A stretch of DNA of 41,149 nt. It comes from a virus. Taxonomy: Duplodnaviria > Caudoviricetes. A program made the translations under genes and the position numbers. Below are positions 22,543 to 40,137 of this stretch, piece by piece. The DNA lies in the IMG/VR virus record IMGVR_UViG_3300032221_000083, positions 1 to 41,149 of that record. One strand, 5' to 3'. The notes below the pieces were generated by a model. The model was not told the DNA's origin and did not search any database. It saw nothing but the letters and a program-made list of their open reading frames with translations. Position 1 is the first letter of the stretch, and the number at the start of each line of letters is the position of its first letter.

Positions 22543-22552
22543 TTGTATCTCC

Positions 22553-23221
22553 TCACCTGCGTTTCGGTGGTATCCAAACTATCTTGTGGTGATACTCACA
22601 GTATGAAGAACTAGCTTGCACGATGCTTCCACAAAACATATGCGTGTCATTCTTTCTACCTATTGGGTAGCGGCATTGATTGTTTTTCAAGTTCAACAAA
22701 GAAGTTATTCCCTCGTCGTCGTTTCCAAACATCGTTTTCATAATACGCCCTACCTTCGAGGGTAAGGTTACTCCAGCGGCTATTGGCTTACCGGGCTGGT
22801 TGGTAATATTCATCGCTGGATTAGTTTTGTTTTTCTCTACTGCTTTAACCTGATAGGCTATTGTGTTTATTTGACTTGCAGTTAGATTGTATTTTTCTGC
22901 CAGCTTTTTACGTATCGCTAAAGAGTTGTTGTTCTCTATAAGCTCTTGCGCTATCAATTTTCGCTGGGCGTTATCTAATTTCTTTTCTTCTATAGGGGTA
23001 GAAAAGTATTCAGCTAAGCGTTCTGGTGGCCAACGCATTACTACTTTAGGAACATTTATTCCACGCTCTCGCATTCGAAACGCTACTCCAGCTACAACGC
23101 CTCTACCTATCCCCATTTGTTGGTAGATATCAACTGGAGGTACGCCAGCTAGTAATAGTTCTTCTATTCTAAGCGTTCGCTTCGATTGTGTCCCCTTCGG
23201 GTTCGGGTTCTTGTAAGTCAT
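22553..23221 (-). CDS. gcrA: GcrA-family cell-cycle regulator
   Basis: N-terminal HTH-like IYQQMGIGRGVVAGVAFRM and C-terminal LLNLKNNQCRYPIG...FCG...SYCEYH signature; ATG 23221 has RBS GGAGA. Confidence 0.8.
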   Translation of the reverse strand: MTYKNPNPKGTQSKRTLRIEELLLAGVPPVDIYQQMGIGRGVVAGVAFRMRERGINVPKVVMRWPPERLAEYFSTPIEEKKLDNAQRKLIAQELIENNNSLAIRKKLAEKYNLTASQINTIAYQVKAVEKNKTNPAMNITNQPGKPIAAGVTLPSKVGRIMKTMFGNDDEGITSLLNLKNNQCRYPIGRKNDTHMFCGSIVQASSSYCEYHHKIVWIPPKRR

Positions 23222-26102
23222 CACTATCTCCACTTGCATAAGCCGCTAGATCGGTTCCGGCTAAATCTATTTGGATAAGATATTCTGAAGTTACTGTTGT
23301 GAACTGAGTACCTGCGCCTAAGATGCCGACGACTGGTTTCATGCCGTATTGCTTACTCAGGGCTTGATTAAATAGCTGCCTAGACACCCCCTTCTTTCCT
23401 AACCATTCAGTAAAGTATGACGTACTGAACCTTGCAATTTTATCTTCAGCGCCGAACTGAAGATGTACGCTCTCCAGCTTTGATGTGTCGCGCTCCACTT
23501 TATAAAAGTCTTTGCGCGGCTTACCTTTGGATATGTGTATGCGGTTCGTATAGAGCGTATGCCGTGAAGCTGCTTTAAAAAACTGCGTCATGGTCGATGT
23601 CACGTTGTCCTTATTAGTTAGGTCAACATGTGTATCCTTACGAAGGTTTCGCATATTCTTTAGCGTCTTAAGCATGAGCTTGTTGATGGCGATCTCGTCA
23701 AAATTGGTGTAGCCGAGACGGTTAGCAAATGTTGCGCCCATACACACGCATGTCATAGTAGCGATCCAGAACCGCTCATCTTGCTGAGCGTTCACTGCTT
23801 TCCATAGCTTCTTAGCAAACTCGCTAACTTCCTCTTGGATTTCTTTTCTATTAGCTCCCAGCCATTGGGCGTAGCGCAATCCGATATGTCCATAATTATT
23901 ATCTAGTTTAGCAGACATGTGCTGAGCATCTACTTCGTGTATCTTACTTTTCGCGGTAGACTTTGGCACAGCAACTTCAAAGATACGAAAGATACCAGCA
24001 GTTGTTGTCTTCGTTTGCGATGTAATGTAGTCGATCAGAGTATCATTTGATGCAGATACCATGAGCGTTTTCCAGCCGCCCGTTTCTCTCTGTGTAATAT
24101 CCGATGTCATGCGAGAACGCTCACGGCCTCGCGTAAGACTGAATATAAGCTGCGTAAACTTTGTCGCAGCTTCTTCGGTCTGTAATTCATCCCAATACAG
24201 CGGCAGGGATTTGAGCGCCCCCATGCGGTTCATAACACTGACGGATGTGTCGTCAACACCCTGCAGCGCATTGATCGGGTGCCCCCAAACAGAGCATCCA
24301 ATTTTCAGAGCAGTAGATTTACCTACGCCGCTTTCTTGGCTGTAGTTAGAATACAAAGCACCAGCGGGGTGGCCAGTTAGTGCGATCAGCGGAGCCCCGA
24401 ACGCTGTTGCAACTAGCGCTTCTAACTCTGGTCTTCCTTCAATCAGTGCAAGGCTATCGAACCACGGCTGGATATCACCCTTTGGCGTGTAATGCTTTTG
24501 AATGATCGGATCAGATATGGCAGAAGGTCTATCCCCTTTCTCCGTCCACATACGCCCACCAAAACTAAATCCTTCTATGCCGCCGCTATCACCGTCATGC
24601 CAACCGAAAGGAGCATTCGAGACGGTCGCATCTTTCAAGGTCTGAAGATGAGCGATCCAACCCATGAAAAATTCCCTCGCTGCTTTTTGTTGGTAATCTT
24701 TGATCATCATTCCCTGCGTTTGCAGGGTTTTGAATAGTTGATCTTTTGTGACGTTGGCATTTGGTAGCATAACCACCGTCTCAGTAAGACCAATCTTTAC
24801 TGTGAAGTGTAGTACCCATGGGTCACGCTTCAACCATGGCTCTCTTACAGGGTAATCAAAGACACGTACCGGGGTCTGGCCACCTTGCATATCTACTACG
24901 ATCTTCGATACGAAATTGTCAGCGTCTCGAACATACCCCTCAGGTAAGTCCACTGTTGGGACATACACGGCTGGAGCAGTTGAATACTTATTCACCACAA
25001 AGTTGAAGGGTGATTTACCATCTTTGACATGGATACATTTCTTGCAGAGAGTGCATCCTGCGTTCTGAATGGCAGCGCAGCTTGGCCAACCTAAGTCTTT
25101 CTGTCTTTGATCAGAGACTGCACGGTCATACTTCTCATCTACAGATGCTTCATCATAGTCTGCATGGCCAGACGACATATTGTGTGCGTCATTACGCCCA
25201 CCTTCAGTGAACACAGCTACCATTAAGGACGAACGCCATAACGGCTCTTGGAAATCCTTACCTCCAGTGGTAAGCGCCTGTTCCACAAATGGGCAGACTG
25301 CTGCGACGTCTGTGATGTGTGGTCGTTTTGCTACAGGGATACCCGCAGCGAGTTCGTCGTCCTCTTGCAGCGGAGTAAGCTGCGGGAGATTAGCCACCAT
25401 ACTAACTGCGTTATTTGCAGACGCTCTTGGTGCTACTTTGTAAGGCTCTAGCTTGTCTTTTAGTTCATCCAGATCATAGGTAGCGCCTTCGACCATGCGC
25501 AATATACGGCATTCAACATGCGGCTCATGCTTTAAGTTCATTGTTCCCGGCGTACGCAAAATACGGCATCGGTCAACAGTGACTTGTGTATCGCATTTTA
25601 AATCATGTTGTCTCGTGGCTTCGGCAAGTGCATCAGCGACAGGTTGCCAGTCATCAGGGCTTACCTCAGAGGTAAGCGGCCAGTAAAAGTGTAATCCATG
25701 TCCTGTATCAACGATAATCGAAGCTGGCGGAAAGCCACTGTCTTTTAAAAATTGTGCATAGGCTGGCAGTATTTCTTTCTTGTTGGAATATGACTTACCT
25801 TCACCAGCATCGATATCAAGAAACAAAGATTTGATAGCTGTTATATTTGTACCTAATCGATTAGCTTTCTTACCGTTCGCTGTAAGCTGTGAGCTTACAC
25901 AATGATAGACACCGCTATGGGCAGCGATACGATTGGCCCATTTAGACGCACCAATAAGTTCATCAACGCCTTTATACGCGCGGCCAGCTAACCCCTTACG
26001 TCCTTCAATATCGAAGCCCCAGTGAATACTCAGGTGGTCGCCAGTGGAGACAGGAAGAATGGCGTTAAAAAATCTACGCAGGTCATCATCGGTGTGGTTC
26101 AT
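23169..26102 (-). CDS. primase (RepB/AEP-like)-DUF927 helicase fusion
   Basis: FLDIDAG, TGHGLHFYW and RILRTPGT primase motifs; Cys cluster C..IQ..GC..C..C; SGVGKST Walker A and YWDE Walker B. Confidence 0.85.
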   Translation of the reverse strand: MNHTDDDLRRFFNAILPVSTGDHLSIHWGFDIEGRKGLAGRAYKGVDELIGASKWANRIAAHSGVYHCVSSQLTANGKKANRLGTNITAIKSLFLDIDAGEGKSYSNKKEILPAYAQFLKDSGFPPASIIVDTGHGLHFYWPLTSEVSPDDWQPVADALAEATRQHDLKCDTQVTVDRCRILRTPGTMNLKHEPHVECRILRMVEGATYDLDELKDKLEPYKVAPRASANNAVSMVANLPQLTPLQEDDELAAGIPVAKRPHITDVAAVCPFVEQALTTGGKDFQEPLWRSSLMVAVFTEGGRNDAHNMSSGHADYDEASVDEKYDRAVSDQRQKDLGWPSCAAIQNAGCTLCKKCIHVKDGKSPFNFVVNKYSTAPAVYVPTVDLPEGYVRDADNFVSKIVVDMQGGQTPVRVFDYPVREPWLKRDPWVLHFTVKIGLTETVVMLPNANVTKDQLFKTLQTQGMMIKDYQQKAAREFFMGWIAHLQTLKDATVSNAPFGWHDGDSGGIEGFSFGGRMWTEKGDRPSAISDPIIQKHYTPKGDIQPWFDSLALIEGRPELEALVATAFGAPLIALTGHPAGALYSNYSQESGVGKSTALKIGCSVWGHPINALQGVDDTSVSVMNRMGALKSLPLYWDELQTEEAATKFTQLIFSLTRGRERSRMTSDITQRETGGWKTLMVSASNDTLIDYITSQTKTTTAGIFRIFEVAVPKSTAKSKIHEVDAQHMSAKLDNNYGHIGLRYAQWLGANRKEIQEEVSEFAKKLWKAVNAQQDERFWIATMTCVCMGATFANRLGYTNFDEIAINKLMLKTLKNMRNLRKDTHVDLTNKDNVTSTMTQFFKAASRHTLYTNRIHISKGKPRKDFYKVERDTSKLESVHLQFGAEDKIARFSTSYFTEWLGKKGVSRQLFNQALSKQYGMKPVVGILGAGTQFTTVTSEYLIQIDLAGTDLAAYASGDSDDLQEPEPEGDTIEANA

Positions 26103-26122
26103 TTTCTTAATCCTGCAGGGTG

Positions 26123-26150
26123 AAAAAGCCGGGGGTGATCACCCCCGGCT
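26123..26150 (-). terminator. intrinsic terminator after the SSB-like gene
   Basis: Perfect 24-bp palindrome AGCCGGGGGTGATCACCCCCGGCT (26127-26150) followed by a U-run on the minus strand. Confidence 0.75.
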
Positions 26151-26158
26151 AACCCACG

Positions 26159-27142
26159 TTAGCGCTTTGGTAGCAGCGCATCAAGCTGTGCGTCCAGATC
26201 GTCATCAAATGTAATGTCGTCTTCAATCTGAACCGTCTCAATAACCTTCTCGACAACCTGTTCAACTACAGGGGGAGGAGGCGCTGCTTTCTTGGGAGCA
26301 GCTACTTTAGGCTTAGTCGCTTCCACTTTTGGAAATGGTTTAGGCGCTTCCACCTTTGGCGCAACTTCTACTGGCGGCTCTGAAAAGAAAGACGTAGCAG
26401 CTTCAGTAGTTACCGGCTCGTCAGAAGATATTTCCTCCTGCAGGATACGATCAATCTGTGGGCTGTTACGTAGATCAAGTACGACCTGCGCTTCGTCATC
26501 TTTCAGAGGGCGTATTGCACTGAACTTCAGCTTTGGATACGCCTGATCAGCATCGAAAGAAATCTTCGTCGCAATCGCAAAGGTTTTGAACCCAGCGTTC
26601 TTGGCCATCTGCGCATACATCGCCATGTCATTCAGTGACGCAGCAGGAACCCGAAGCAGCATAGGGCCGCCATAGGTCTCGTTGTGTAAGTCACCAACTG
26701 GCGTGACTGCAATGCGTTTCGTATCGCTACATGCTTTGCCTTTCTTACCTGACGGGGTAATCCGTGAACCGAACTGGTTCTTAGGGCAGAGCGCGCATGT
26801 CTTAGACTGCGCCTTCTTGCTGCTAGGATCGGGAGTAAGACCGTTCGTGGAGAAGCAATCTGGAGCTTCAACAGAACCTTCCTCATACCCACGCTCGTAC
26901 CAGAACTTGGCTACATGCTCAGACGACTTCAAAATAACTACATCAACAGAGCCACGAGGGCCATCGCCATCATCGCGCATAAGCGGAAATACTTCGCCGC
27001 GATAGCGGATCGACCATGTTTTCCCCTTAAAGCCCAAGATAGGAAAGCCGGTTTTAATACCGGCTGTGATTGCGTTATCGTCGTCTTCATCAGCAAAGAC
27101 GTTAGAGATTTTACCAAAGTTACCAGAGATTAGTTCACCCAT
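26159..27142 (-). CDS. putative ssDNA-binding protein
   Basis: PDCFS.NG..PD...CALCPKNQFGS...GKAC...RIAV, LRVPAASL; Pro/Ala linker and acidic C-terminal tail; strong RBS AGGAGG. Confidence 0.7.
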   Translation of the reverse strand: MGELISGNFGKISNVFADEDDDNAITAGIKTGFPILGFKGKTWSIRYRGEVFPLMRDDGDGPRGSVDVVILKSSEHVAKFWYERGYEEGSVEAPDCFSTNGLTPDPSSKKAQSKTCALCPKNQFGSRITPSGKKGKACSDTKRIAVTPVGDLHNETYGGPMLLRVPAASLNDMAMYAQMAKNAGFKTFAIATKISFDADQAYPKLKFSAIRPLKDDEAQVVLDLRNSPQIDRILQEEISSDEPVTTEAATSFFSEPPVEVAPKVEAPKPFPKVEATKPKVAAPKKAAPPPPVVEQVVEKVIETVQIEDDITFDDDLDAQLDALLPKR

Positions 27143-27151
27143 TGTATCCTC

Positions 27152-27541
27152 CTATGATTTACGTTGGACGCCAATAGTCAACCGAGTTGAAAAATTACAA
27201 CCGGGTGGCGGTGCTTCATGCTCGTTAATGAAATCCTCAACAGCAGTTACGTTAGCCTTACGATCAAGTAAGTCCCACGCATTGTTTTTAATAACGTACT
27301 CCATAAACGCAGCAGGGTCAGCGAGAGACGCAGATTTACGTGGAGTAATATACATTGTACCCGCGTTAGTGCTGATGCTATTTGAGTTTGTTGCTTGGAT
27401 ATACTCCAACATTTGCGCTTCCAGCTTTTCTTTCAGCGCTGTTAGTGGACGCTTTCTATCCGCATGTTCATCATCCATACGTTTTAGTTCGTCTCGTAAT
27501 TGAACGTATTGCGAGACGCGCTTTTCTGCATCGAATGTCAT
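27152..27541 (-). CDS. conserved replication-module hypothetical protein
   Basis: YVQLRD coiled coil, T.AGT, WDLL, PPPG motifs. Confidence 0.65.
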   Translation of the reverse strand: MTFDAEKRVSQYVQLRDELKRMDDEHADRKRPLTALKEKLEAQMLEYIQATNSNSISTNAGTMYITPRKSASLADPAAFMEYVIKNNAWDLLDRKANVTAVEDFINEHEAPPPGCNFSTRLTIGVQRKS

Positions 27542-27553
27542 AGTGTGGTTCTC

Positions 27554-29119
27554 CTATGCGCTTGCTTCTTCGAACAAATGTAATAGTTGCTCCTGTATGC
27601 GTTGCTTACTCCGGAGCATAGAGTAAACACGTTTCTCTACTGGGGTTCCTTGGATCATTATTATTTGCTGTTTGTGTTTCTGTCCTACCCTTCTTATTCT
27701 CGCGTTGGCTTGGTCAAACGTCTCCAGATCAAGCACAGGCGATACCCATATAGCAGTCGTCGCTGCTGTAAGGGTGATGCCGTGTGCTAGACATGCAGGG
27801 TGCGCAAGCAAGACCTTATACTTATCAGTGTTCTGAAAAGTGTGGAATATATCTGAACGCTTACCTGCTGCGGTATCTCCAGATACTACCGCATGTTCTA
27901 TATCTTCAGCGTCTAGCGCCTTAGATAATCCTGCCAGCGCGTGTTTGAAATTAACAAACGCCAGAACTTTTTTATCTGTATCATTTATTATATCTACAAC
28001 TGCTTCTATCCTCTTATCATTATCCAGAGCTACAATCCCTTGTCCTTTTGCGTACACCCACCCAGAGCTTATCTGCAGGAGCTTGCTCATCGCAACACCT
28101 GCATTCGCTGCTGTTATTTCTTTGTTCTCTACCATGGCGTAGCATTTACGCATCACATCTTTGTATGTTTTTTCTTGTTGCGTACCCATCTCTACATCTA
28201 CAGTGCGCTCGATTAGCTGCGGCAGTTCTTGAACATCATCCAATGAATACCGAACGCTCGGCTGCAAGACTGAAAATGCTTTCTCTACTGCATCAGATTT
28301 GGGAGCCCATTTGTACTGGTTTATTCTAGTCATAATCTCATCACGAAACCTGCCAAAATATTTCGGCACATTATCAGGCGTGATGATAGAGGCTTGTGCC
28401 CATACATCTGTAGGGGAGTTAGGAATTGGGCGTCCTGTCATTGCCCAAGCCCAAGACTTTCCTTTTACAAACGACCTCATATTCTTTGTTCTGTCGCTCG
28501 TACCATTGCGGTACAAAGACATTTCATCGATCACGATAGCGTCTATATCAGCGCGTTGGTCAAGTGCATCGCGCATGACCTTCATACCATCGTGATTAAT
28601 GACAAAAATATCTGCGTCTTCTTCCAGAAGTTTTAGTCTGCGTTCTTTATTATAATGGTGTAGCACTACGCACTTCAGATGCGGAACAGTGGTGAAGACT
28701 TCTCTTGCCCATGTAAAGTTCAAGGTGGATAGCGGGGCTACAACGAGTAGCTTGTGAGCCAGACCCAATCCCTTCAGATAATCAAAAGCCCATAGAGCAG
28801 TCTTTGTTTTACCTGTTCCAAGATCATTCAACACATACGCACGTTGGTTCATTGTGAGCATGGCGCATGTCTTTTTCTGAACATCGAATGGTTGGCGCAT
28901 ACCGGGCCAATCATACATTGTCAGAATAGGAGCCGGGATATCGTAGCCCAGCCGCTGTAAAAGAAATGTCTGCGGCGGAGCGTAAGGAACGGCAGCTGTC
29001 TGCTTACCTTTGAGGGTAAGTCTCGGCAGGTCTGGAAACAAGTTCTGTATAGTAGGAACATCTGGGACCATAACAACCCCATGTTTCTTACTAATCTGGA
29101 ATTGATTGCTTGGTGTCAT
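27554..29119 (-). CDS. SNF2-family (SF2) helicase
   Basis: DLGTGKT, VIDE, MTGRP, HGITLT and QANARIRRVGQ motifs. Confidence 0.9.
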   Translation of the reverse strand: MTPSNQFQISKKHGVVMVPDVPTIQNLFPDLPRLTLKGKQTAAVPYAPPQTFLLQRLGYDIPAPILTMYDWPGMRQPFDVQKKTCAMLTMNQRAYVLNDLGTGKTKTALWAFDYLKGLGLAHKLLVVAPLSTLNFTWAREVFTTVPHLKCVVLHHYNKERRLKLLEEDADIFVINHDGMKVMRDALDQRADIDAIVIDEMSLYRNGTSDRTKNMRSFVKGKSWAWAMTGRPIPNSPTDVWAQASIITPDNVPKYFGRFRDEIMTRINQYKWAPKSDAVEKAFSVLQPSVRYSLDDVQELPQLIERTVDVEMGTQQEKTYKDVMRKCYAMVENKEITAANAGVAMSKLLQISSGWVYAKGQGIVALDNDKRIEAVVDIINDTDKKVLAFVNFKHALAGLSKALDAEDIEHAVVSGDTAAGKRSDIFHTFQNTDKYKVLLAHPACLAHGITLTAATTAIWVSPVLDLETFDQANARIRRVGQKHKQQIIMIQGTPVEKRVYSMLRSKQRIQEQLLHLFEEASA

Positions 29120-29411
29120 CGTGGGTAGCTTTCAAATAATCTTCTAGTTGCTTAGTGTCATCTTCACCGCAGATTACAAAGGTGGTTCCTCCTGCGGATA
29201 AGATTTCTGCTATGGTTCTCTCTTGTCTTTCTGTTGGTTTACCTCCTGCTTTCTTTGTCTCTATGGCTACAAAGTTTCCTCTTATGCACAAGAGATAATC
29301 TAAAGAAGGAACACCGTAACCTGTTTGCACTGGCATAAATTTATAGATGTCAGGATACTTCGATAGTACCTTGTTCACCTTTGCTTTCACCTTGCTTTCC
29401 GGCGTCGGCAT
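29091..29411 (-). CDS. VRR-NUC nuclease
   Basis: TPESKVK, GYGVPSLDYL, FVAIETK, PTERQ, AGG motifs. Confidence 0.85.
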   Translation of the reverse strand: MPTPESKVKAKVNKVLSKYPDIYKFMPVQTGYGVPSLDYLLCIRGNFVAIETKKAGGKPTERQERTIAEILSAGGTTFVICGEDDTKQLEDYLKATHDDTKQSIPD

Positions 29412-29544
29412 TTAAAGTTTTCTCCAGCGCAGACACACGCGCTTCCAGAACTTGGTAGCCTTCTATCGTAGCGACCAAGCCCTTGTGCATCTTTTCAAGC
29501 GCTTTGAAAACCTTACTAAATTCAGCATGTAGGCTCAAGTCCAT
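29350..29544 (-). CDS. small coiled-coil hypothetical protein
   Basis: ATG 29544 with RBS GGAGAG; LEARVSALE heptads. Confidence 0.5.
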   Translation of the reverse strand: MDLSLHAEFSKVFKALEKMHKGLVATIEGYQVLEARVSALEKTLNADAGKQGESKGEQGTIEVS

Positions 29545-29545
29545 T

Positions 29546-30229
29546 TTACTCTCCATTATATTTGCAGGTTGTGACTGGGCACCATCTGCGGCAGAGGGCA
29601 CTTTGTTTCGGAGGAAAACTATTTGTCTCATGAGCCGAACGCAGCAGTTCAATTCTTGGCATTAAGTCTTTCCATACCATAGCCATGTCATTGCGATCAT
29701 AATCTGCCCGTGTAGTGGCATCTTCTTTTAACCATATAAACTCAGCCCTGATCTTCTTAACGCAAGGGTGATGAGCAAAGACACATTGCGCCATTAGCGC
29801 AAGCTGAGCCGCATCTTCTAGTATCTTCCCGGTTTTCCAATCCATTACCAGAGCGACTGGCCCTGTGATCTTTATAACGTCAGCGATACCGCGATACCAT
29901 GCAGACGGTGCAAACCAATCACACCCACTAAACTCAGCGTCTATTGCTAATTTCTGTTCTACTAATAACTTACCTCCACCGGTAAGCACATCATCTACCC
30001 AATACTTCAAATGCTTATACGGCTCAGGTAGTGGGGCTGTTTGTTGTATAGCTTCTGCAAGTGCTTTATGGACAGCGTTACCATACGCTAGATGTTCGCT
30101 TTCTTCTTCCTTGATATTTTTTAGTAGGTCTATTTGTTCATAGCGATGCGGACACGTTTCAAAGTTTTTTAATTTACTATAGCTCCAAGCGAATTGCTTA
30201 GGCTTGCGGCGTATTGTTGTCACCTGCAT
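29546..30229 (-). CDS. PD-(D/E)XK Cas4/RecB-like exonuclease
   Basis: WSYSKLKNFETCP, GNAVH, RGIADV, DWKTGK, QLAL and C..C...C motifs. Confidence 0.85.
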   Translation of the reverse strand: MQVTTIRRKPKQFAWSYSKLKNFETCPHRYEQIDLLKNIKEEESEHLAYGNAVHKALAEAIQQTAPLPEPYKHLKYWVDDVLTGGGKLLVEQKLAIDAEFSGCDWFAPSAWYRGIADVIKITGPVALVMDWKTGKILEDAAQLALMAQCVFAHHPCVKKIRAEFIWLKEDATTRADYDRNDMAMVWKDLMPRIELLRSAHETNSFPPKQSALCRRWCPVTTCKYNGE

Positions 30230-30494
30230 GTAGCAATTCCTTAGCGAGATTAACTAATCGTTGTTTTTCTGTTTCATCTATCCAATATCCAACTCTACGT
30301 TTGGATCGGATTATAGGCTCCCACTTTTCCATGTGCTCTTTAAGGCTTTTTACAATCACATGGGCTGGAGTGTCTGTTTCTAGTTCTTCTTTTACCTCAA
30401 CCGGCGATAACATTTTGTGGGTTAGCAGAAGTTTTAATAGCTTGCCTTTCTGCGGGGGCAGTTGGAAAGCTACGTCCAATGCTGATCTTGGCAT
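30198..30494 (-). CDS. winged-helix DNA-binding protein (OmpR/PhoB CTD-like)
   Basis: LPPQKGKLLKLLL...HVIVKSLK...IRSKRRVGYWI. Confidence 0.7.
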   Translation of the reverse strand: MPRSALDVAFQLPPQKGKLLKLLLTHKMLSPVEVKEELETDTPAHVIVKSLKEHMEKWEPIIRSKRRVGYWIDETEKQRLVNLAKELLHAGDNNTPQA

Positions 30495-30504
30495 GACGAT
30501 CCGG

Positions 30505-30576
30505 AAAAAATGGGGGGCGCAGGGGTAGCGGCCCCCCTAGTCTAGGGAGGAAACGCCCAAAGCAGGGCGTCACCAG
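30505..30576 (-). ncRNA. MmgR/suhB (alpha-r8)-like small RNA
   Basis: Minus strand: ACGCCC-TGCTTT-GGGCGT hairpin, TTCCTCCCTAGACT linker, GGGGGGCCGC-TACCCCT-GCGCCCCCC terminator hairpin, then ATTTTTT; matches my recollection of the alpha-r8 core; 5' end estimated. Confidence 0.8.
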
Positions 30577-30581
30577 AACAC

Positions 30582-30609
30582 TATGTAGTAACTATCTAGT
30601 ACTTGTCAA
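30582..30609 (-). promoter_or_regulatory. sigma70-type promoter of the sRNA
   Basis: TTGACA (30609-30604)-N16-TACATA (30587-30582), or N18-CATAGT. Confidence 0.6.
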
Positions 30610-30999
30610 CCCTCTACAAAGGGGAACACCTAATTTATTTAAGTCTGTCCCTCGTAATACTGTAAACTCAACTCTGTTTAACGCGCCTACCTTTTCAAGG
30701 TAATCTGCAACGCGGGGATACGTACTGTACGCACTCCATAGAAGTGCATTACCTCCCATATCTATATTCTTTGTATGCTCTATGTGTGCTCCGTGAAACC
30801 TCCATTTTGAGTTTGGTTGTACACAACGCGCAGAACGCAACGCCATCGTCCCGCCAGAGGAGTAAACTGTATCACGCTCTCCAATGCCGGAAGCTGCTGT
30901 AACGTACCAACATTCGTTTACTTCCCCGCCATGTTGCAGGGTGCAAGCTAACGCTGGTGTCGTAAAAAGAATACCTGCAAGGGTAAGGATTTTATTCAT
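30592..30999 (-). CDS. secreted ClpP/crotonase-like protein
   Basis: Signal peptide ending TPALA; HGG...YSSGGT...CVQPNSKWRFH...YP...GAL...LRGTDL...C resembles alphaproteobacterial periplasmic ClpP-like proteins. Confidence 0.5.
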   Translation of the reverse strand: MNKILTLAGILFTTPALACTLQHGGEVNECWYVTAASGIGERDTVYSSGGTMALRSARCVQPNSKWRFHGAHIEHTKNIDMGGNALLWSAYSTYPRVADYLEKVGALNRVEFTVLRGTDLNKLGVPLCRGLTSTR

Positions 31000-31261
31000 A
31001 ATAAGTCTCCATTGGGGGCAAAGTCATTCCAAGTTGAAAACCTGCGCTTGACAATACATCTTCTACTTCTTTGAGAGATTTACGCCCAAAATTTGGAAAG
31101 CTCAGTAGTTCTGATTTAGTCATTGTTACAAGTTCGTAAATATAGTGTATATCATTATACATAAACATATTCAGAGCACGAATGCCGACATCAAGCTCGC
31201 CTGTTTTACACAACAAGCCTAGCCGTTTTAATTTTTCTCCTTTTGGTTCAGCATCGTTCAC
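30992..31261 (-). CDS. stand-alone RNA polymerase alpha-subunit CTD-like protein
   Basis: LDVGIRALN...IHYIYELV...ELLSFPNFGRKSLKEVEDVL...GFQLGM; GTG start at 31261 with GGAG RBS. Confidence 0.85.
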   Translation of the reverse strand: MNDAEPKGEKLKRLGLLCKTGELDVGIRALNMFMYNDIHYIYELVTMTKSELLSFPNFGRKSLKEVEDVLSSAGFQLGMTLPPMETYYE

Positions 31262-31788
31262 AATAAGTCTCCATCGAATGTAGCTACAAAAACTTGTCTG
31301 CATTGCTGCGGCCTACAAAAACCTTGGGCATGAAAACATCCTTCGAATACAGCAAACTTATCCATAGCGGGTTGGATTGTGTATGTTATCTTTTCACCCT
31401 TCTCGTCAAACAAGAATGTTTCTCCCTTGTCGAACTTATTTAGATAAATCAATAACGATTTATGCGGAAAGTCAGGATGGTCATTGTGTGGATCGCCATG
31501 CAAACTCGGGTCTGCATATGTGAGATTAAACGCCATCCTGTATATTGTGCGAACTATTATATTGTTTTTACGGCATAGCCGCATGAACATTTCGACTGCT
31601 TTAGGTGCGTACGAAGAATGCAAAACTCCGGGCTCTTTCTTGTCAGTACGCATGATTAAATTATGCGTCAGGCAAGGAAAATTATGTGTTGCCATACCGT
31701 GGTACCAAGGAAATTCAGAACCTCCTATCGTAAGAAGGAAATCCAAATCTTCTTGCTCAAAGTTACACATTCCTTCTAGCAGTATCAT
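31258..31788 (-). CDS. 2OG-Fe(II) oxygenase
   Basis: HND (HxD), LIYLN..DKGET, FEG..HA, distal R. Confidence 0.75.
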   Translation of the reverse strand: MILLEGMCNFEQEDLDFLLTIGGSEFPWYHGMATHNFPCLTHNLIMRTDKKEPGVLHSSYAPKAVEMFMRLCRKNNIIVRTIYRMAFNLTYADPSLHGDPHNDHPDFPHKSLLIYLNKFDKGETFLFDEKGEKITYTIQPAMDKFAVFEGCFHAQGFCRPQQCRQVFVATFDGDLL

Positions 31789-32057
31789 TTCCGTTTTCCT
31801 CTCAGCACCTCGGATACACGCCCCGGATTTACATTATGAACTCTTGCTATCTTTACATACGACCAGTCTGGATTGGCTTTTGCTGTCGCTCTAATAGCTC
31901 TGGCGACCACTGGCGTCATCGGAGTAGAGGAAGACTTACTTCTGCGGGTAGGTTTTCGTCTTGGGATTTCCTCAAGAATGTCTTGTAACCTTCCTGATAG
32001 AAGGTTGAGAGCGAAAGCGATCTTCTTCAGGTCTGCTTCGATTTCTGGCAACGTCAT
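31785..32057 (-). CDS. small HTH protein
   Basis: PDWSYVKIARVHNVNPGRVSEVLRGKR. Confidence 0.65.
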   Translation of the reverse strand: MTLPEIEADLKKIAFALNLLSGRLQDILEEIPRRKPTRRSKSSSTPMTPVVARAIRATAKANPDWSYVKIARVHNVNPGRVSEVLRGKRK

Positions 32058-33913
32058 TTTGCTTCTCCATATGATTGACCAACACCAGCTTCAGCATCCA
32101 AGGGTAAGTCTTTTGCCCACTCAGGACGCCGCCGCATCTCTTCCAAAACAGTAGCGGTACAGACATCAACAAGATCATCTGGAACAATGTAGATAAGCTC
32201 ATCGTGCGCTTGACCAGCGAGCTCAACCCCAAACGAAGAAAGCCGCTTCTCAATAGCCACCGCGCTATCCATCACGCAAATTCTAGCCAATGCTTGCACT
32301 ATATTTTCTAGCAGCTTACCTCCGTATAAAGTCTTCTTCATACCTCCGAAGGTAAATCTCCATCCGTCAGGTTCACGTTCAAGGCCGGGGTAATGCAGAT
32401 GCAAGCCACTCGGTAGCGTCACCTTGCCGTGCTCAAAGACGCAAGGGCCAAGATTGTAAGATGATTTCATACCTGCAAGGATGGAGATAGCATTATCCAA
32501 AGCGCGCCATGTCATAGGCACAGCGTCGTTAATGCGACGGTATGTACCTACAACATTTTGTGCTTCGACATCGCTCAATTCAATCTGGGTGCCGGTCTGC
32601 GCTTTGCTCTGCATCTTCACCGTCTTTTGGAACTTCACCCATCCAACGCCATAGCCAAGTCCAAGGATACCTGTCTTACCCACGAAGCGTTCTGTCGGGT
32701 TCTTTTTCTTATCCACTTTGAAGCCGAACACCGCAGAGGCGAAGTTAGAATAGACATCCTCGTTCTTCGCAAACTGAAAGACTAGATCGCTTTGTCCGCA
32801 TATCCACGCAACAATGCGCGCTTCGATCTGTGAACTGTCCACTGTTAGAACTTTGTACCCCGGCGGCGCTATGAGTGCGCGCCGTAGTGCGCCACCACGC
32901 GGAAGGTTCTGCGTATTGAGTGACCACTCTCCGGACAACCGATGCGTATGTGCGCCAGCATATCTTAGTGGGATAGGCATCATCGCTGCTGGCTTACCGC
33001 GCCAAGTAAGGTTGGACATACTCAATAATCTTTCTGTCCTTGTTTCTTCGAGCGTAGATTTTACACCCAACCTTGCTGCGATAAGCATCTGAACTTCTGG
33101 AGTGTCATGGTCTAGCAGCGCCATAAACTCTGGATCAGTACGACTAAACGCATATGTTTCGTTACCAGTGGCTGGGCTTACCTTCTTAGGTACGTCAACT
33201 CCCATCAACAAAAGAGTATTCGCCAACCGCTCGTTACTCATCAGGGCATCTTTATCTATACCAATCTTAGCGAGCAGGTTCTCCTTGGTAGCTCGCACAA
33301 GATGTAAATGCTCAGCCAATACATCAGCATCAAGCTGGAACTTGGGGTTAAGCGCGCAGCGCAACACCATATCCATGATGATTAGCTCTTGGGTTGGGAA
33401 CGACGGACGCATCTTCTCGTATAAAGCTGCGCACAAGCGCACGTCCTGCAGAGCGTATTCAACAAACTGTGGGTAAAACCCAGATTGTTTTATGTCCTCT
33501 AGCATCATACCTTTTGTAGCTTGAAGGACAGCCCCGCCTTCGGCCTTACCGCCTAAGCCAAAGAACTCTGCAACTTTAGCTAAAGAGTGAGACTTCAGCG
33601 CCCATGAGTTGAGCGCTCTGCTCATGCCTAAGGTATCGATTGTGAGGCGCGGAATAAAATCATAATACCATGCTGTAATACACGCATCGAACAAAGCGTT
33701 GTGGCTAACTAGAGCGACCTTGTTAGGGTCTAGCGAAGCAAACCAAGCGGGCAGATCAGGGCCATCAATCCAAACCGGATCGCCGCCCTTCTTCATGACG
33801 GCTGCACCGTGAACAGAAAACAGCGGAGATAAAATATATTCAACAGGTGTCATCTTGCTCAGCGAGAAGTCCTTCGACCAGTATGTTTCGTAGTCGATAA
33901 AATAAATTTCCAC
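32054..33913 (-). CDS. polA: family A DNA polymerase with 3'-5' exonuclease
   Basis: DYET, HNALFD and YALQD exonuclease motifs; DSSQIEAR (A), KTGILGLGYG (B), HDE (C); GTG start. Confidence 0.92.
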   Translation of the reverse strand: MEIYFIDYETYWSKDFSLSKMTPVEYILSPLFSVHGAAVMKKGGDPVWIDGPDLPAWFASLDPNKVALVSHNALFDACITAWYYDFIPRLTIDTLGMSRALNSWALKSHSLAKVAEFFGLGGKAEGGAVLQATKGMMLEDIKQSGFYPQFVEYALQDVRLCAALYEKMRPSFPTQELIIMDMVLRCALNPKFQLDADVLAEHLHLVRATKENLLAKIGIDKDALMSNERLANTLLLMGVDVPKKVSPATGNETYAFSRTDPEFMALLDHDTPEVQMLIAARLGVKSTLEETRTERLLSMSNLTWRGKPAAMMPIPLRYAGAHTHRLSGEWSLNTQNLPRGGALRRALIAPPGYKVLTVDSSQIEARIVAWICGQSDLVFQFAKNEDVYSNFASAVFGFKVDKKKNPTERFVGKTGILGLGYGVGWVKFQKTVKMQSKAQTGTQIELSDVEAQNVVGTYRRINDAVPMTWRALDNAISILAGMKSSYNLGPCVFEHGKVTLPSGLHLHYPGLEREPDGWRFTFGGMKKTLYGGKLLENIVQALARICVMDSAVAIEKRLSSFGVELAGQAHDELIYIVPDDLVDVCTATVLEEMRRRPEWAKDLPLDAEAGVGQSYGEAK

Positions 33914-33933
33914 GCTTACCTCCTGCGGTAGGG

Positions 33934-33962
33934 TTGACGAAAGCCATCACGAACTATATCTA
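33934..33962 (+). promoter_or_regulatory. putative sigma70 promoter divergent from polA
   Basis: TTGACG (33934-33939)-N17-TATCTA, overlapping CTATAT; immediately next to a palindromic operator copy. Confidence 0.5.
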
Positions 33963-33967
33963 GATAT

Positions 33968-34051
33968 CGTCGGTCATCACGACGCATCATCCTGTGGGTA
34001 GGATATTGGGACGGTGAGAGGGTGTGGTTCCCCTCTCATCGTCTTTCTTTT
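33968..34051 (+). ncRNA. candidate small RNA with three hairpins and intrinsic terminator
   Basis: CGTCG/CGACG, ATCCTG/TAGGAT and a 13-bp GACGGTGAGAGGG/CCCTCTCATCGTC stem followed by TTTCTTTT; G-U pairs and U-tract work only on the + strand. Confidence 0.55.
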
Positions 34052-34706
34052 ATATATTGATCATCACTGTGACAGGGCGTCTGGGCACCTCGTCAGGCAT
34101 AAGCCGCGCTGCATTTATTATCGCAGTTATATCGCGCAACGCTTGCTTGGTGTCAGGGTTAAGGGCTGGACGCTGCGAGGGTGAAGACTTAGCTGCCTTA
34201 GCAATACGTTTACCAATACTAGAATTAGTATCAGTAAACAAAGACGCAAGGGTTGGCCAATAGAATAGAACCTGCGTCATAGTAGTACATGTGTTGTTAA
34301 GCGTATCGAGCGCAGTGCTAAACCTAAACTTCTTCTCGGCTACATCAACTGCAGATATTAGCCAATCATTTAGCCTACCTTCGAGGTAAGGTTTAATCTC
34401 ATGCTCCTTCATTGTAATATAGTCAGGACGTAATACAGATTTATCTTCTGTGATTATCCTAACTCTGTAGTCTTTATACTTTGTATCGAAGCTCCATGTT
34501 TCGTAGTTCTGCTGATTAACTGTCAGCATACCAGCCAGCTTGCATGTCTCAATATGCTGAGGCTCATAAAACTCAGTGAGTATGTCATCCATTGTGATGT
34601 CATGAGGCAGATGACGCAGGATACGTTCGCATAGATTATTTACAATGCGCGAGATATCTGAACGATCCTGTCCGTCTAGCGGTTTCTTATTAGGTTTGCT
34701 TCGCAT
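34050..34706 (-). CDS. hypothetical protein
   Basis: ATG 34706 with GGAG 8 nt upstream; T..QV...WP.L motif. Confidence 0.65.
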   Translation of the reverse strand: MRSKPNKKPLDGQDRSDISRIVNNLCERILRHLPHDITMDDILTEFYEPQHIETCKLAGMLTVNQQNYETWSFDTKYKDYRVRIITEDKSVLRPDYITMKEHEIKPYLEGRLNDWLISAVDVAEKKFRFSTALDTLNNTCTTMTQVLFYWPTLASLFTDTNSSIGKRIAKAAKSSPSQRPALNPDTKQALRDITAIINAARLMPDEVPRRPVTVMINI

Positions 34707-34854
34707 AGTTCTCACTCCATAAGTTAAAGATAAGTGACGGCTTGAAGGGTTTCACGGTCATGCAATGCGCGCTTAGTAGCCAACCGAACCCAACCTTGTA
34801 GCGCCTCACACGCTTGCCCGTTGCCGTCGCGGATGCAGGGAAGTGCAACGGCTA

Positions 34855-36135
34855 CTAAGCAGCTTGCTTGGGGACATCTACAACATCGCCCCACGGTGCC
34901 TTACCGTCAGGGTAAATGTTGCCCCAGATTACAGGATAGGATGGCTTCTGATTAGGGAATGTGCCTAGCAGATCAGTGAGATATACAAGAGCATCAGGCG
35001 TTATGCCTTGCTCGTGTATCCAATCGAACACAGGGCGGAAATCAGTGCCACCACCACCCGGCGCTCCCTTGGCGCGAATGACGCGCAGATCGCTCTCGCT
35101 CTCGCACTCGTCAGCACGATGCACCTTGGCGTCACACCAAACAAGAAACAAGCGGCGAGGTCGCAAGTCCTCAAGAATGCCGGACACTTCTGCAAGGAAC
35201 ATGTCCACTTCTTTGGGGCCAATAGAACCTGAGGTATCCACGCCAACTACAATCGAACCAGCGCCATACCCAGAGCGAGAAGGAACATATATCTCGCGGT
35301 TCATCCATTCGTCGTCAGGCTTATGGAAGTCATAGCCACCACCGCCAGCCTTGCGCGCCAGCAGTGAGCGAATATGATCGCGCCACTCAACCTTCGGCTC
35401 CAGCACATCACCGAACAAGCGTTCCAACGCAGCAGGTAACTTACCCATAACTTTTGCAGCTTGCATCGCAGCAGCGACAGCTTGCTGAACTTTCTGCGGA
35501 TTGTGTTCGCTTACCGTGGAGGTAGGGTCTTTGCCGGATGCAGCACCGGGCTCTTTGTGTTGGCAGAAGCCACCACCATGATCATCGCCACCGCCACCGC
35601 TGCCACCGCCACCGTTCTGATCATCATTGTATAGCTTGCGATAGACATCGAGGAAGTCACTATTAGCTGTGGCGATCTTCGGGTCATACAGCCCCTTATA
35701 TTTACCAGTAGGCATCTCGCCAACCTTGCTCTCTGTCAGGATAGCATTGACGATATAGTCCATGGCTTGGTTCATAATGTTTTGGTCATACTTGGCGCTC
35801 GATCCATCCTTGAACGGAACCTTGCCAGTCGTGTGCATCTTGTACCCGAGCATGATATGCTCAAGGACAACGTGCAGTATCTCGTGCGCTGTTACAAAGA
35901 TACGGTTAGACAGTTTGAACTCGTCGGAGAAGAACGCATTAGGGTTAAGTATAAGAGACTTACCGTCAGTAGCAGCAACGCTAATCTCATCAGTGAACAC
36001 AGCGTTATTACCACTACCGACACTATCCATCAGCGAATACAGCAGGTGAGTAAAGGACGGATAGTGCCATGTCATTGCAGCAACAGTCTCGCGCCATTGG
36101 CGCTCCTGCTTGTTGTCAAGATTAATTTTAAGCAT
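34855..36135 (-). CDS. metallopeptidase-VWA domain protein (DUF2201-like)
   Basis: AATDG, HEILH, N.AMD, DTSGSI MIDAS, GGGGTDFRPVF, YLTD; ATG 36135. Confidence 0.88.
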   Translation of the reverse strand: MLKINLDNKQERQWRETVAAMTWHYPSFTHLLYSLMDSVGSGNNAVFTDEISVAATDGKSLILNPNAFFSDEFKLSNRIFVTAHEILHVVLEHIMLGYKMHTTGKVPFKDGSSAKYDQNIMNQAMDYIVNAILTESKVGEMPTGKYKGLYDPKIATANSDFLDVYRKLYNDDQNGGGGSGGGGDDHGGGFCQHKEPGAASGKDPTSTVSEHNPQKVQQAVAAAMQAAKVMGKLPAALERLFGDVLEPKVEWRDHIRSLLARKAGGGGYDFHKPDDEWMNREIYVPSRSGYGAGSIVVGVDTSGSIGPKEVDMFLAEVSGILEDLRPRRLFLVWCDAKVHRADECESESDLRVIRAKGAPGGGGTDFRPVFDWIHEQGITPDALVYLTDLLGTFPNQKPSYPVIWGNIYPDGKAPWGDVVDVPKQAA

Positions 36136-36160
36136 GTGCTTACCTCTTGTGGTATGTGTT

Positions 36161-36382
36161 TCAGTATTCTTCGGATGGCTCGTCGAGTGCGATTTCGATA
36201 TCCTCCGTGCCGTGCATGAAGTCAGACGAATAACAAGCGATCTGTGGCTTACGTGTCTCAGCAAACAACATAGATTGCGAAAGTAAATTCTTAGCTGCCA
36301 GCATCGTCGCTGTCTTCATAATGTCCGCACGTTCGTCATCAACGTCCATGCGAAGTTCAATAGTGTATGTTCTCTGCGTCAT
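36161..36382 (-). CDS. hypothetical protein
   Basis: 73 aa; RBS inside a palindromic operator copy. Confidence 0.6.
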   Translation of the reverse strand: MTQRTYTIELRMDVDDERADIMKTATMLAAKNLLSQSMLFAETRKPQIACYSSDFMHGTEDIEIALDEPSEEY

Positions 36383-36864
36383 TTGTTTACCCTCTGCGGT
36401 AAGCGACTAGCTTTGCGTAGGTCAGCGTTATTAAGGAACGCATCTAGCCATGTATGCCATATCTCCTTTCCTTCATCGCCATTGAAGTGGAACACAATGC
36501 GTGATGATCTCCTTACAAACTCGACAGGATCAGGGTTGCGCCCATACTTACGTAGAGTAGGGGCAGCGACCAGCAGAAGATTGGAGCATAACGGAAAGTG
36601 TTTCTGTGCGTTGGGTAGATCAAGCATCATGGTAAACTTATCCGAATACCCATACTTTTCTGCGTAGATAAACGGACGCTTCTCTTGTTGGCATGACGCA
36701 CGTAATGTCTTTCGCATAGTTACCCAAGGCATGAACTTCTGCCACTCAGGAATAGCGTGCCTCATCGAGTAATGATATTGTTCGTGGATATAGATATTCG
36801 TATCGTCGTAGTCAGCCCACACACGACGCAGGTTCTCTGCGACTAAGTCTAGCTTAGACAACAT
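36379..36864 (-). CDS. hypothetical protein
   Basis: ATG 36864 with GGAGGT RBS; avoids overlap with the ATPase gene. Confidence 0.6.
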   Translation of the reverse strand: MLSKLDLVAENLRRVWADYDDTNIYIHEQYHYSMRHAIPEWQKFMPWVTMRKTLRASCQQEKRPFIYAEKYGYSDKFTMMLDLPNAQKHFPLCSNLLLVAAPTLRKYGRNPDPVEFVRRSSRIVFHFNGDEGKEIWHTWLDAFLNNADLRKASRLPQRVNK

Positions 36865-36905
36865 GCTTACCTCCAAGGGTAGGGGCGGGGCTTTCGCCCC
36901 ACCTA

Positions 36906-37988
36906 TTACTTGCTGATTGAGTGAAGCAGCAGCATGAGCGAGTTGTGCTTCTGCGACCATGCTTGCATAGCTGGCGACAGCGCCAATACAGGCAGTCGAT
37001 TGCAAGCAGCGCGGGCGAACGACACAGCGAACGGCGCGGGCAAGCGGTCAACATACTTGATCACTGGCGTGATTGTCTCCTTGGTTACACGGTGCGCTAG
37101 ATTGTAGCAGATCAACATACGCGCATCAGGCGCAGTCTCCGGAGGGATACGCTCACCTTCGGGGTCACGCACGATGTTCTCAAACTTTGGCATCTCGCGA
37201 TCCAGTTTGATGAACGACATAAGCTGCGCGGTCGCAGCTTGACCAATCTCACCAGCGATTTCTTCTGCCAGATAATCAGCATCGAGTTCACCATTGAGTT
37301 CGAGTTCAGCACGTAGCGTAGCATCTGCGGCAGCGATGGATCGTGGCGTAGGCCATGGACCTTGCTTGTCAGGCACACCGTCCGTGAATACGACATGCGG
37401 GTTAGCGTTGGTAAAAGCTACCGTGACAGGTAAGCATCCATGTTGCGTCTGCCATTGCAGCAAGCTCTCAAGATCATCGGAGACATCAATCTCCATGCGA
37501 CGATTGATAAGATGATCTAGCTCTTTAGTAGAACCAGAACGGTCGCCAGCACGATTACCAGCACCCCATACAATCCACCCGTCAGGTAAGATATGAGGGC
37601 CGAAACGACCAGAAAGCCTACCTTCTCCCAATACTTTCTTGACATCAACGTCAGCCTTATCTTCTTCGTCAACAAAGATGATACCGCCATCATACTCGTC
37701 GAGACGCTTACCTTCGTCGGTAATCCAGAAGAATGGATCAGTGAACAACATTCGGCTATGGTTGTCCTCGTGCTTGGGGACACCGAAACCTAACGTGTGC
37801 ATAGGCGTAAGCATACCGCCATTGATAACAACAATGCCAAACTTCTTACCGGGAAACGCTTTCCCAAGCAATTCGGGCGCACGACCAATAACGGTAGATT
37901 TGCCACGCCCCGGAGCGGATTTGATATAGACAGATTTACGCGCAGCATACCATGTAGGGATGCGACGGATAACAGTAGATAAATTCAT
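36906..37988 (-). CDS. MoxR-like AAA+ ATPase (partner of the VWA protein)
   Basis: SAPGRGKS Walker A, IFVDE Walker B, AGNR..DRSG, L.NR, PTPRS. Confidence 0.85.
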   Translation of the reverse strand: MNLSTVIRRIPTWYAARKSVYIKSAPGRGKSTVIGRAPELLGKAFPGKKFGIVVINGGMLTPMHTLGFGVPKHEDNHSRMLFTDPFFWITDEGKRLDEYDGGIIFVDEEDKADVDVKKVLGEGRLSGRFGPHILPDGWIVWGAGNRAGDRSGSTKELDHLINRRMEIDVSDDLESLLQWQTQHGCLPVTVAFTNANPHVVFTDGVPDKQGPWPTPRSIAAADATLRAELELNGELDADYLAEEIAGEIGQAATAQLMSFIKLDREMPKFENIVRDPEGERIPPETAPDARMLICYNLAHRVTKETITPVIKYVDRLPAPFAVSFARAACNRLPVLALSPAMQAWSQKHNSLMLLLHSISK

Positions 37989-38011
37989 AGTAAGTCTCCT
38001 GTGGGTATAGA

Positions 38012-38230
38012 TTAGCGGCGAAGCGCATCACGCACGCTTGTGACGGTATTGTGAGTGCGCACAATCATGTGCCGCTGATACGGGTTCATCACTTCCCATA
38101 TCTCCTTATCGATACGCAGTAGGTTATACTGCGTATCGAGAGTAGCGGCGCAATCGTTACTCGGAAGCTCGGAGTTCTCCACCAATCTGATCAATCGCGG
38201 ATAACCGCCCTCCGGATGAAACGCTGACAT
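38012..38230 (-). CDS. hypothetical protein
   Basis: 72 aa, RBS GAAGGT. Confidence 0.55.
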   Translation of the reverse strand: MSAFHPEGGYPRLIRLVENSELPSNDCAATLDTQYNLLRIDKEIWEVMNPYQRHMIVRTHNTVTSVRDALRR

Positions 38231-38540
38231 TTACCTTCTCCTTTGATGTCTTACCTTTCGGGGTAACTTCTGGCGGGACTTGATAACCAAGCGCACGGGC
38301 CACCAGCAATGAGTAACCAGACATATCAACCCAATGATCCGGCTCATCTTTATTGCCACACAGGATACGCGCCAACTTACTTGCAAGCATATCCAATGCT
38401 TCACGCTGCAAGGGTGAGAAGGACGCACCATTGCGTGAGCTAACAAACACTTCTTTCAAGTGTTGTGACATGTATGACACATCCTCAAAGGAACCGTGGG
38501 TAAGTTCGCGTTCAAGCAAGACTTCATTAACCAAGCTCAT
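38157..38540 (-). CDS. DUF6378-like protein
   Basis: L.ER..THGSF, QREALDM..SKLARILCG...DHWVDMSGY. Confidence 0.75.
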   Translation of the reverse strand: MSLVNEVLLERELTHGSFEDVSYMSQHLKEVFVSSRNGASFSPLQREALDMLASKLARILCGNKDEPDHWVDMSGYSLLVARALGYQVPPEVTPKGKTSKEKVNVSVSSGGRLSAIDQIGGELRASE

Positions 38541-38554
38541 AGCTTTCTCCTAAG

Positions 38555-38986: not shown

Positions 38987-38987
38987 C

Positions 38988-39743: not shown

Positions 39744-39763
39744 CGCTTACCTCTCAGGGTAGG

Positions 39764-39955: not shown

Positions 39956-39956
39956 C

Positions 39957-40133: not shown

Positions 40134-40137
40134 CACC

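What the first reader, a model, noticed from the sequence alone, without database searches (positions are those of the whole stretch)
30505..30609. Phage-encoded MmgR/suhB (alpha-r8)-like anti-Shine-Dalgarno sRNA
Seen: a self-contained unit of about 72 nt on the minus strand with a TTGACA promoter, hairpin, UUUCCUCCCUAGACU and GC-rich terminator. Established: alpha-r8/suhB sRNAs of Alphaproteobacteria share the UUUCCUCCCU core between two hairpins, and Sinorhizobium MmgR is Hfq-associated and limits phasin/PHB accumulation. Inference: the phage captured a host riboregulator to redirect stored carbon, silence host mRNAs by SD occlusion or titrate Hfq, in effect a non-coding auxiliary metabolic gene. 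I am not aware of this family being described in a phage replication module.
Basis: partly seen in the sequence, partly recalled or inferred. Interest (0 to 1): 0.85.

Follow-up and report, generated by a model that had tools for sequence, protein, structure and literature searches.

The report
Lake phage carries host-type small RNA
A freshwater phage carries a complete copy of a known alphaproteobacterial regulatory small RNA (alpha-r8/MmgR/SisA type) behind a promoter-like site of its own, and likely uses it to block ribosome-binding sites on host nutrient-uptake and carbon-storage messages, though no transcript or target has been seen.

Summary
Observation confirmed. Window 30575-30497 (minus strand) is the only Rfam hit in 41 kb: suhB/mmgR RF00519, 49 bits against a cut-off of 41. 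It has a 5' hairpin, the exact UUUCCUCCCU core and a terminator hairpin, behind the best sigma-70-like site in 19 kb. It lies among phage replication genes, has no FGase neighbour, and is intact in independent lake assemblies.

Eight of 82 related phage records carry diverged promoter-plus-core copies at two different sites. About 280 IMG/VR stretches hold the 15-mer core.

Best reading: a trans-acting anti-Shine-Dalgarno sRNA aimed at host mRNAs, freed from host control. Main rival: a leader terminator gating the downstream helicase/primase genes.

In print I found only one supplementary row listing RF00519 in IMG/VR. This scan noted phage alpha-r8 copies on other DNA at least seven times.

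In passing: a second conserved RNA at about 33966-34050 matches no Rfam family and is complementary to the phage's own ribosome-binding sites.

The parts
30580..30609 (-). sigma-70-like promoter (TTGACA, 18 nt, CATAGT); overlaps the stop codon of ORF 30592-30999
   Evidence: only 10/12 site in 22000-41149; background 0.0005 of random windows; similar sites in 5 of 6 relatives' copies
30497..30575 (-). alpha-r8/suhB/MmgR sRNA gene (Rfam RF00519 match); predicted transcript about 30574-30505, ~70 nt
   Evidence: 49 bits, E 3.1e-7
30552..30571 (-). 5' weak hairpin
30544..30553 (-). family-defining 10-mer UUUCCUCCCU (anti-Shine-Dalgarno seed), followed by AGACU
   Evidence: definition in PMC12559287
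30505..30537 (-). intrinsic terminator: bulged GC stem and U6 tract
   Evidence: one lake contig has one extra U
30198..30494 (-). downstream gene, start codon 10 nt after the U tract: conserved small protein, weakly like an OmpR-type winged-helix domain without a receiver
   Evidence: PF00486 in 3 of 11 members, best E 0.0012; E 0.013
30592..30999 (-). upstream ORF (135 aa, hydrophobic N-terminus, no family); last gene of the pol-proximal run
33934..34050 (+). second conserved small RNA with its promoter-like site (noticed in passing; not alpha-r8)

Best explanation
This is a phage-borne alpha-r8 (MmgR/SuhB/SisA-type) small RNA gene that is likely transcribed by host sigma-70 RNA polymerase as a ~70-nt RNA, and is predicted to pair, with Hfq, to ribosome-binding sites of host mRNAs and repress them. 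The likely targets are the host's own alpha-r8 regulon: TonB-dependent receptors and other starvation-induced uptake genes, and PHB synthesis. The phage copy has a plain consensus promoter and lacks the box seen upstream of host copies, so it would add seed RNA regardless of nutrient state and could outrun a host sponge such as CrfA. The payoff would be a host held in a 'fed' programme, with fewer surface receptors and less carbon stored. Shown: family membership, anatomy, phage location, conservation. Inferred: transcription, Hfq dependence, targets, benefit. Its terminator may also punctuate the replication operon as a side role.
For: Rfam hit above cut-off. Core identical to host copies, and the same 10-mer is SisA's validated seed on a TonB-receptor mRNA (PMC12559287 passages); SuhB represses phbB and a TonB receptor in reporter tests (bioRxiv 10.64898/2025.12.09.693200 passages). 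Six distinct copies in 8 of 82 related records keep core, two hairpins and -35/-10 boxes while spacers and stems differ; 6 of 7 family copies pass a promoter scan at 8-10 of 12 (background 0.0005-0.011). Position is not fixed: in G009 and G014 the copy is convergent with terL, so it leads no gene there. The seed pairs strongly (<= -12 kcal/mol) with 17 of 274 start regions in four phages with a copy, against 17 of 93 bacterial ones. The TTGTGC box found upstream of 2 of 3 host copies is absent from all 7 family copies (its role as an AniA site is recalled). Alphaproteobacterial host: GcrA domain, closest cultured relatives are Rhizobium phages, relatives lie in Pseudolabrys and Rhodospirillales contigs.
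Against: No transcript, 5' end or target was observed, and the host is unknown. All relatives' copies score below Rfam's cut-off (29-39 bits; 0 of 82 records over it), and the nearest relative (L138) has a drifted core lacking the full 10-mer. Most relatives, including the cultured phage RHph_TM3_14A, have no copy, so it is dispensable. Low seed pairing to phage start regions is the same in three relatives without a promoter-driven copy (20 of 278), so it is not avoidance driven by this RNA. If transcription starts at 30575, two core C residues are predicted paired. The 7-sequence alignment gave no clean covariation (consensus -4.7 kcal/mol). Only 3 of 96 terminator-bearing IMG/VR copies have such a consensus promoter.
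Confidence: 0.55

Rival explanations
1. Cis leader/attenuator. The promoter mainly serves the downstream winged-helix, exonuclease, helicase, SSB and primase genes. The alpha-r8 unit is a terminator gate that must be read through, and the core is the handle by which Hfq, a sponge RNA or a phage factor tunes it.
For: The next start codon is 10 nt after the U tract. This is the strongest sigma-70-like site in 22000-41149 and the only terminator found between pol and exo. Five distinct family copies lie just 5' of the winged-helix gene; in six other relatives a partial CUCCC..ACU core precedes the terminator in that gene's 3' UTR. In 7 of 61 IMG/VR loci the unit follows a transcription antiterminator gene.
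Against: Copies in G009 and G014 face terL tail-to-tail, and 24 of 61 IMG/VR copies have an opposite-strand ORF next (crude ORF calls). The seed does not pair with the downstream start (-3.4 kcal/mol). The core-versus-terminator alternative fold is 12 kcal/mol worse. Several relatives have a terminator here with no core.
Confidence: 0.2
2. Decoy. The RNA works by soaking up a host sponge (CrfA-like) or Hfq rather than by pairing with mRNAs itself.
For: CrfA binds the same core and destabilises SisA under carbon starvation (PMC12559287 passages); the phage is found in lake metagenomes.
Against: A CrfA-like sponge is shown only in Caulobacter. Hfq titration needs no conserved seed. An intact seed would hit mRNAs anyway, so the outcome merges with the best explanation.
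Confidence: 0.1
3. Self-regulation. The seed silences the phage's own earliest genes, or pairs with the phage's second small RNA, as a timing switch.
For: Two early start regions pair fairly well: ORF ending 38555 (-18.2 kcal/mol) and 40485-40724 (-17.7).
Against: Only 3 of 47 window start regions pass -12 kcal/mol. Seed pairing with the second RNA is no better than shuffles in 7 of 7 genomes (38-116 of 200 as good).
Confidence: 0.08
4. Passenger. It is a captured host fragment or old attachment-site remnant, kept only as a convenient terminator.
For: Patchy distribution and drifted cores. Some unrelated viral copies lack the 5' hairpin and face an integrase (L031/L069); two relatives encode an integrase.
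Against: The window copy is complete with an exact core. Twelve core bases are identical with a relative whose exonuclease is only 65% identical, while flanks are unrelated. Promoter boxes are kept with diverged spacers. No integrase was found in the (incomplete) window.
Confidence: 0.07

Closest known systems
alpha-r8 sRNA family, Rfam RF00519 suhB (MmgR of Sinorhizobium meliloti)
   Same: Above-cut-off covariance match; exact 10-mer between a weak hairpin and a terminator; ~70-77 nt.
   Different: On a phage; not beside FGase (host copies L297 and L298 are); consensus promoter without the upstream TTGTGC box of those host copies.
SisA-D of Caulobacter crescentus with the CrfA sponge (PMC12559287; passages and section 9 read)
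   Same: Same seed; siblings under unrelated promoters at unlinked sites, like SisB-D.
   Different: Chromosomal there; no phage or prophage copy is mentioned; no sponge partner found in this phage.
SuhB of Sphingopyxis granuli (bioRxiv 10.64898/2025.12.09.693200; abstract and passages read)
   Same: Same family; SD-blocking of thnR, phbB and a TonB receptor.
   Different: Activated by a LysR factor; 'phage' does not occur in the text.
Phage-encoded Hfq sRNAs: lambda PreS/LPR1 (bioRxiv 10.1101/2024.10.31.621285, abstract and outline read), prophage AgvB/AsxR and DicF (passages)
   Same: Phage RNA acting on host transcripts by base pairing.
   Different: As far as read, those are phage-specific RNAs or sponges, not copies of a core host sRNA family.

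Membership tests
alpha-r8 / RF00519 suhB | Covariance-model score at or above the gathering cut-off | tested here: met
   49 vs 41 bits, full model length
alpha-r8 / RF00519 suhB | 10-mer UUUCCUCCCU downstream of a weak hairpin | tested here: met
   30553-30544
alpha-r8 / RF00519 suhB | 10-mer single-stranded | tested here: inconclusive
   CCUCCCU open (p >= 0.93) if the RNA starts at 30572 or later; two C paired if it starts at 30575
alpha-r8 / RF00519 suhB | Rho-independent terminator | tested here: met
   -18 kcal/mol stem plus U6; not listed by the strict scanner
alpha-r8 / RF00519 suhB | Expressed as a discrete Hfq-bound sRNA that represses mRNAs | not testable with these tools
   needs northern blot, Hfq co-IP or reporter assays
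alpha-r8s1 subfamily (MmgR/SisA orthologues; subfamily name recalled) | Linkage to an N-formylglutamate amidohydrolase gene | tested here: not met
   no FGase hit in the window, 80 IMG/VR loci, 3 cultured-phage loci or 40 genome pieces; met by host copies L297 and L298
Auxiliary metabolic gene (functional class) | Changes host metabolism during infection | not testable with these tools
   host unknown; no culture

The most novel reading that the evidence does not exclude
Alphaproteobacterial phages have repeatedly captured the host's core alpha-r8 riboregulator and use it as an RNA-only takeover gene that overrides the feast-famine sponge switch, shutting TonB receptors (superinfection exclusion) and PHB storage. 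This family pairs it with a second anti-RBS RNA aimed at its own replication genes: one small RNA for the host, one for itself.
Probability: 0.3. Interest if true: 0.8.

Novelty: new variant of a known kind. Interest (0 to 1): 0.55.

Why it matters
Known phage sRNAs are mostly phage inventions. A working copy of a conserved host global regulator, spread over many unrelated phages, would be a non-coding counterpart of auxiliary metabolic genes that gene callers miss. It is directly testable: cultured phages carry above-cut-off copies (OP596613 and PP395640, 62.8 bits each), and deletion strains and reporters exist for SisA, SuhB and MmgR. If the role is only an operon gate, interest drops to that of a recycled terminator.

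Tried and rejected
Origin from the host ctrA 3' UTR (suggested by L300): rejected. A core plus terminator was seen in 1 of 29 ctrA loci, and CtrA ranked 9th of 11 OmpR-type domains against the phage winged-helix profile.

The second RNA as a sponge for the alpha-r8 copy: no better than shuffles.

Seed avoidance in the phage's own ribosome-binding sites: no difference between phages with and without a copy.

An alternative hairpin between core and terminator arm: -19.7 vs -32.1 kcal/mol.

A search for a donor: no exact match of 28-30-nt window patterns in bacterial genomes or metagenomes.

Expression: no RNA holder listed.

Covariation from a MAFFT alignment: inconclusive.

Literature: searches for MmgR+phage, suhB+sRNA+Rfam+phage, suhB+phage genome+ncRNA, alphar8/prophage, RHph_TM29, ppBeUSDA76 and a six-term query showed no paper about alpha-r8 in phages; most hits were judged from listings only. 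The listing was filled by prophage-only papers. The MmgR paper PMC5370414 was not held. The 2016 family-defining paper was not read; I rely on its citation in PMC12559287. Supplementary files 1-2 of PMC10690425 could not be searched and bioRxiv supplements are closed, so a prior mention there cannot be excluded.

Full report
OBSERVATION. On the minus strand the window shows TTGACA (30609), an 18-nt spacer and CATAGT (ending 30580), then a weak hairpin, UUUCCUCCCUAGACU, a GC stem and six U ending at 30505. cmscan gives one gathering-level hit in 41,149 bases: RF00519 suhB/mmgR at 30575-30497, 49 bits against 41, E 3.1e-7. The fold has z = -3.23. The promoter is the only 10-of-12 site among 19 in 22000-41149. 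Against a too-clean picture: the strict terminator scanner misses the stem, the promoter overlaps the stop codon of the upstream ORF, and seed accessibility depends on the unmapped start site.

CONTEXT. The window is an unclosed 41-kb virus record; complete relatives are 57-67 kb. The unit lies between a family A DNA polymerase (32054-33913) and the exonuclease, VRR-type nuclease, helicase and primase-like genes. A GcrA domain, Rhizobium phages as the closest cultured relatives and relatives inside Pseudolabrys and Rhodospirillales contigs point to an alphaproteobacterial host. Some relatives are probably temperate: one is classed as a provirus and two encode an integrase. The region is held by lake metagenomes. 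Of four runs laid, X2 spans the unit and both neighbours in one 1,375-nt contig, X9 covers it with one extra U, X6 covers it in two contigs, and X11 barely reaches it. No substitution is listed inside it. It is therefore not a chimera.

RELATIVES. I fetched 82 loci by the exonuclease and searched their whole records with RF00519. None of 82 passes the cut-off; 12 of 50 and 2 of 27 match at E <= 0.01. By inspection, six distinct promoter-plus-core-plus-terminator copies occur in eight records. Four (L129/130, L137, L146/176, L138) lie between pol and a small winged-helix-like gene, as in the window. Two (G009, G014) lie tail-to-tail with terL. L138 was missed by Rfam at E <= 0.01 and has a drifted core. 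Six of seven family copies, the window's included, pass a promoter scan with background 0.0005-0.011; two host copies score 6 and 0. Each folds alone into hairpin, linker and terminator with different stem sequences (six of the seven folded), but the joint alignment gave no clean covariation. In six further relatives a partial core sits in the 3' UTR of the winged-helix gene. A quick tree of 45 rows (near-duplicates and short or distant rows dropped) puts the window beside L138 (99) and all promoter-driven copies inside one 16-row branch (91); the pol-interval group needs two changes.

WIDER SPREAD. The exact 15-mer is in an estimated 280 IMG/VR stretches (117 fetched). Of 105 distinct ones, 96 pass a lax terminator test that 453 of 1,500 random sites pass, and 86 also have a 5' hairpin. 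Ten of 20 hand-picked loci pass Rfam's cut-off. A one-base variant pattern gives 27 more stretches, five of them the family's own records. Of 61 loci analysed, 32 have a PHROG-matched neighbour, among them antiterminator (7 loci), capsid, terminase, endolysin and integrase genes. None of 80 has FGase within 3 kb, whereas host copies L297 and L298 do. Cultured phages OP596613 and PP395640 score 62.8 bits; KY940711 scores 37. Some of these copies may still be host paralogues in provirus flanks.

MECHANISM. Established in hosts: SisA pairs through this 10-mer with a TonB-receptor mRNA, shown by compensatory mutation, and is neutralised by the CrfA sponge in carbon starvation (PMC12559287, passages and section 9). 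SuhB represses phbB and a TonB receptor in reporter assays (bioRxiv 10.64898/2025.12.09.693200, passages). MmgR limits phasins and PHB, with no direct target described (PMC7143759, passages). The phage seed is identical. It pairs well with 6% of start regions in four carrier phages and 18% of bacterial ones, but also 7% in three non-carrier phages. The phage is thus a poor target, though not through avoidance. The copy lacks the TTGTGC box present upstream of two of three host copies. I infer a constitutive, host-directed repressor (0.55). The main rival is a leader gate (0.2): the next start codon is 10 nt after the U tract, and no other strong promoter serves the downstream genes. The convergent copies and the lack of any cis pairing argue that gating is not the family-wide role. 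Decoy (0.1), self-regulation (0.08) and passenger (0.07) follow.

COMPARISON AND NOVELTY. It is a member of alpha-r8 on every sequence criterion that could be settled, and fails the FGase-linked subfamily test. My paper searches found no study of alpha-r8 in phages, and a 2025 review of phage sRNAs has no mention of Alphaproteobacteria, Rhizobium or Caulobacter (PMC12197685, term search). However, the supplement of PMC10690425 lists RF00519 among known Rfam families recovered from IMG/VR, in one row with no mention in the main text; two of its files could not be searched. This scan has noted phage copies on other DNA at least seven times; I took those notes as leads, not support. Verdict: real, a new variant of a known kind, function untested; interest 0.55.

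SECOND RNA. While cataloguing terminators I found a separate conserved RNA on the plus strand at about 33966-34050, divergent from pol, with TTGAC invariant in 14 of 14 aligned copies. It has no credible Rfam match. Its middle hairpin has an 11-nt perfect complement over the ATPase ribosome-binding site. The five best start regions are ATPase, pol, helicase, the ORF ending 36379 and primase. ATPase leaders in about half of 12 genomes carry the matching ACCCA..GGAG tag, and one (G023) changes in step with its RNA. Against: with the anti-SD held fixed and the rest shuffled, 6-51 of 100 controls did as well in each of seven genomes. It is a candidate c4-like repressor of the phage's own replication genes (comparison recalled) and deserves its own study.

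Noticed in passing
window 33934-34050 (+): Second conserved small RNA divergent from DNA polymerase: TTGAC promoter box, three hairpins, conserved GUGGGU loop, strong terminator; homologues in at least 13 related contigs; no Rfam family. Its loop arm is complementary to the phage's own ribosome-binding tag (11 nt perfect at the ATPase start near 38007). Candidate antisense repressor of replication genes.
   Followed up: partly
window 30198-30494 (-): Conserved winged-helix-only protein, weakly OmpR-like and not closest to CtrA; always near an alpha-r8 copy or a terminator.
   Followed up: partly
window 30992-31303 (-) and 22553-23239 (-): Stand-alone RNA polymerase alpha C-terminal domain (PF03118) and a GcrA-domain protein: more host-type transcription factors in the same region.
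   Followed up: no
L127, L133, L153, L162, L163, L121 (pol-exo interval): A partial alpha-r8-like core sits in the 3' UTR of the winged-helix gene just before its terminator; possible 3'-UTR-derived sRNA.
   Followed up: partly
L031 (and duplicate L069), L115, L003: Copies facing a tyrosine integrase (L031, L003); L031, L069 and L115 lack the 5' hairpin. Alpha-r8 genes may serve as integration sites, a possible capture route.
   Followed up: no
L001, L027, L048, L012, L042, L005, L011: Core plus terminator directly after major capsid genes (4-63 nt from the stop), where a 3'-UTR RNA would be made in bulk late in infection.
   Followed up: no
L120 (PP395640) and OM681334: Phages deposited as Microcystis phages carry an alphaproteobacterial-type alpha-r8 sequence (62.8 bits for PP395640), which may question their host label.
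   Followed up: no
L290/L291 (Pseudolabrys MAG contig): Two apparently identical copies of a related phage region 62 kb apart on one contig: tandem prophage or assembly repeat.
   Followed up: no
window 34855-37988 (-) and 38555-39043 (-): ATPase plus metallopeptidase/VWA pair conserved across the family; a pyrimidine-dimer glycosylase has the best alpha-r8-type ribosome site in the window.
   Followed up: no
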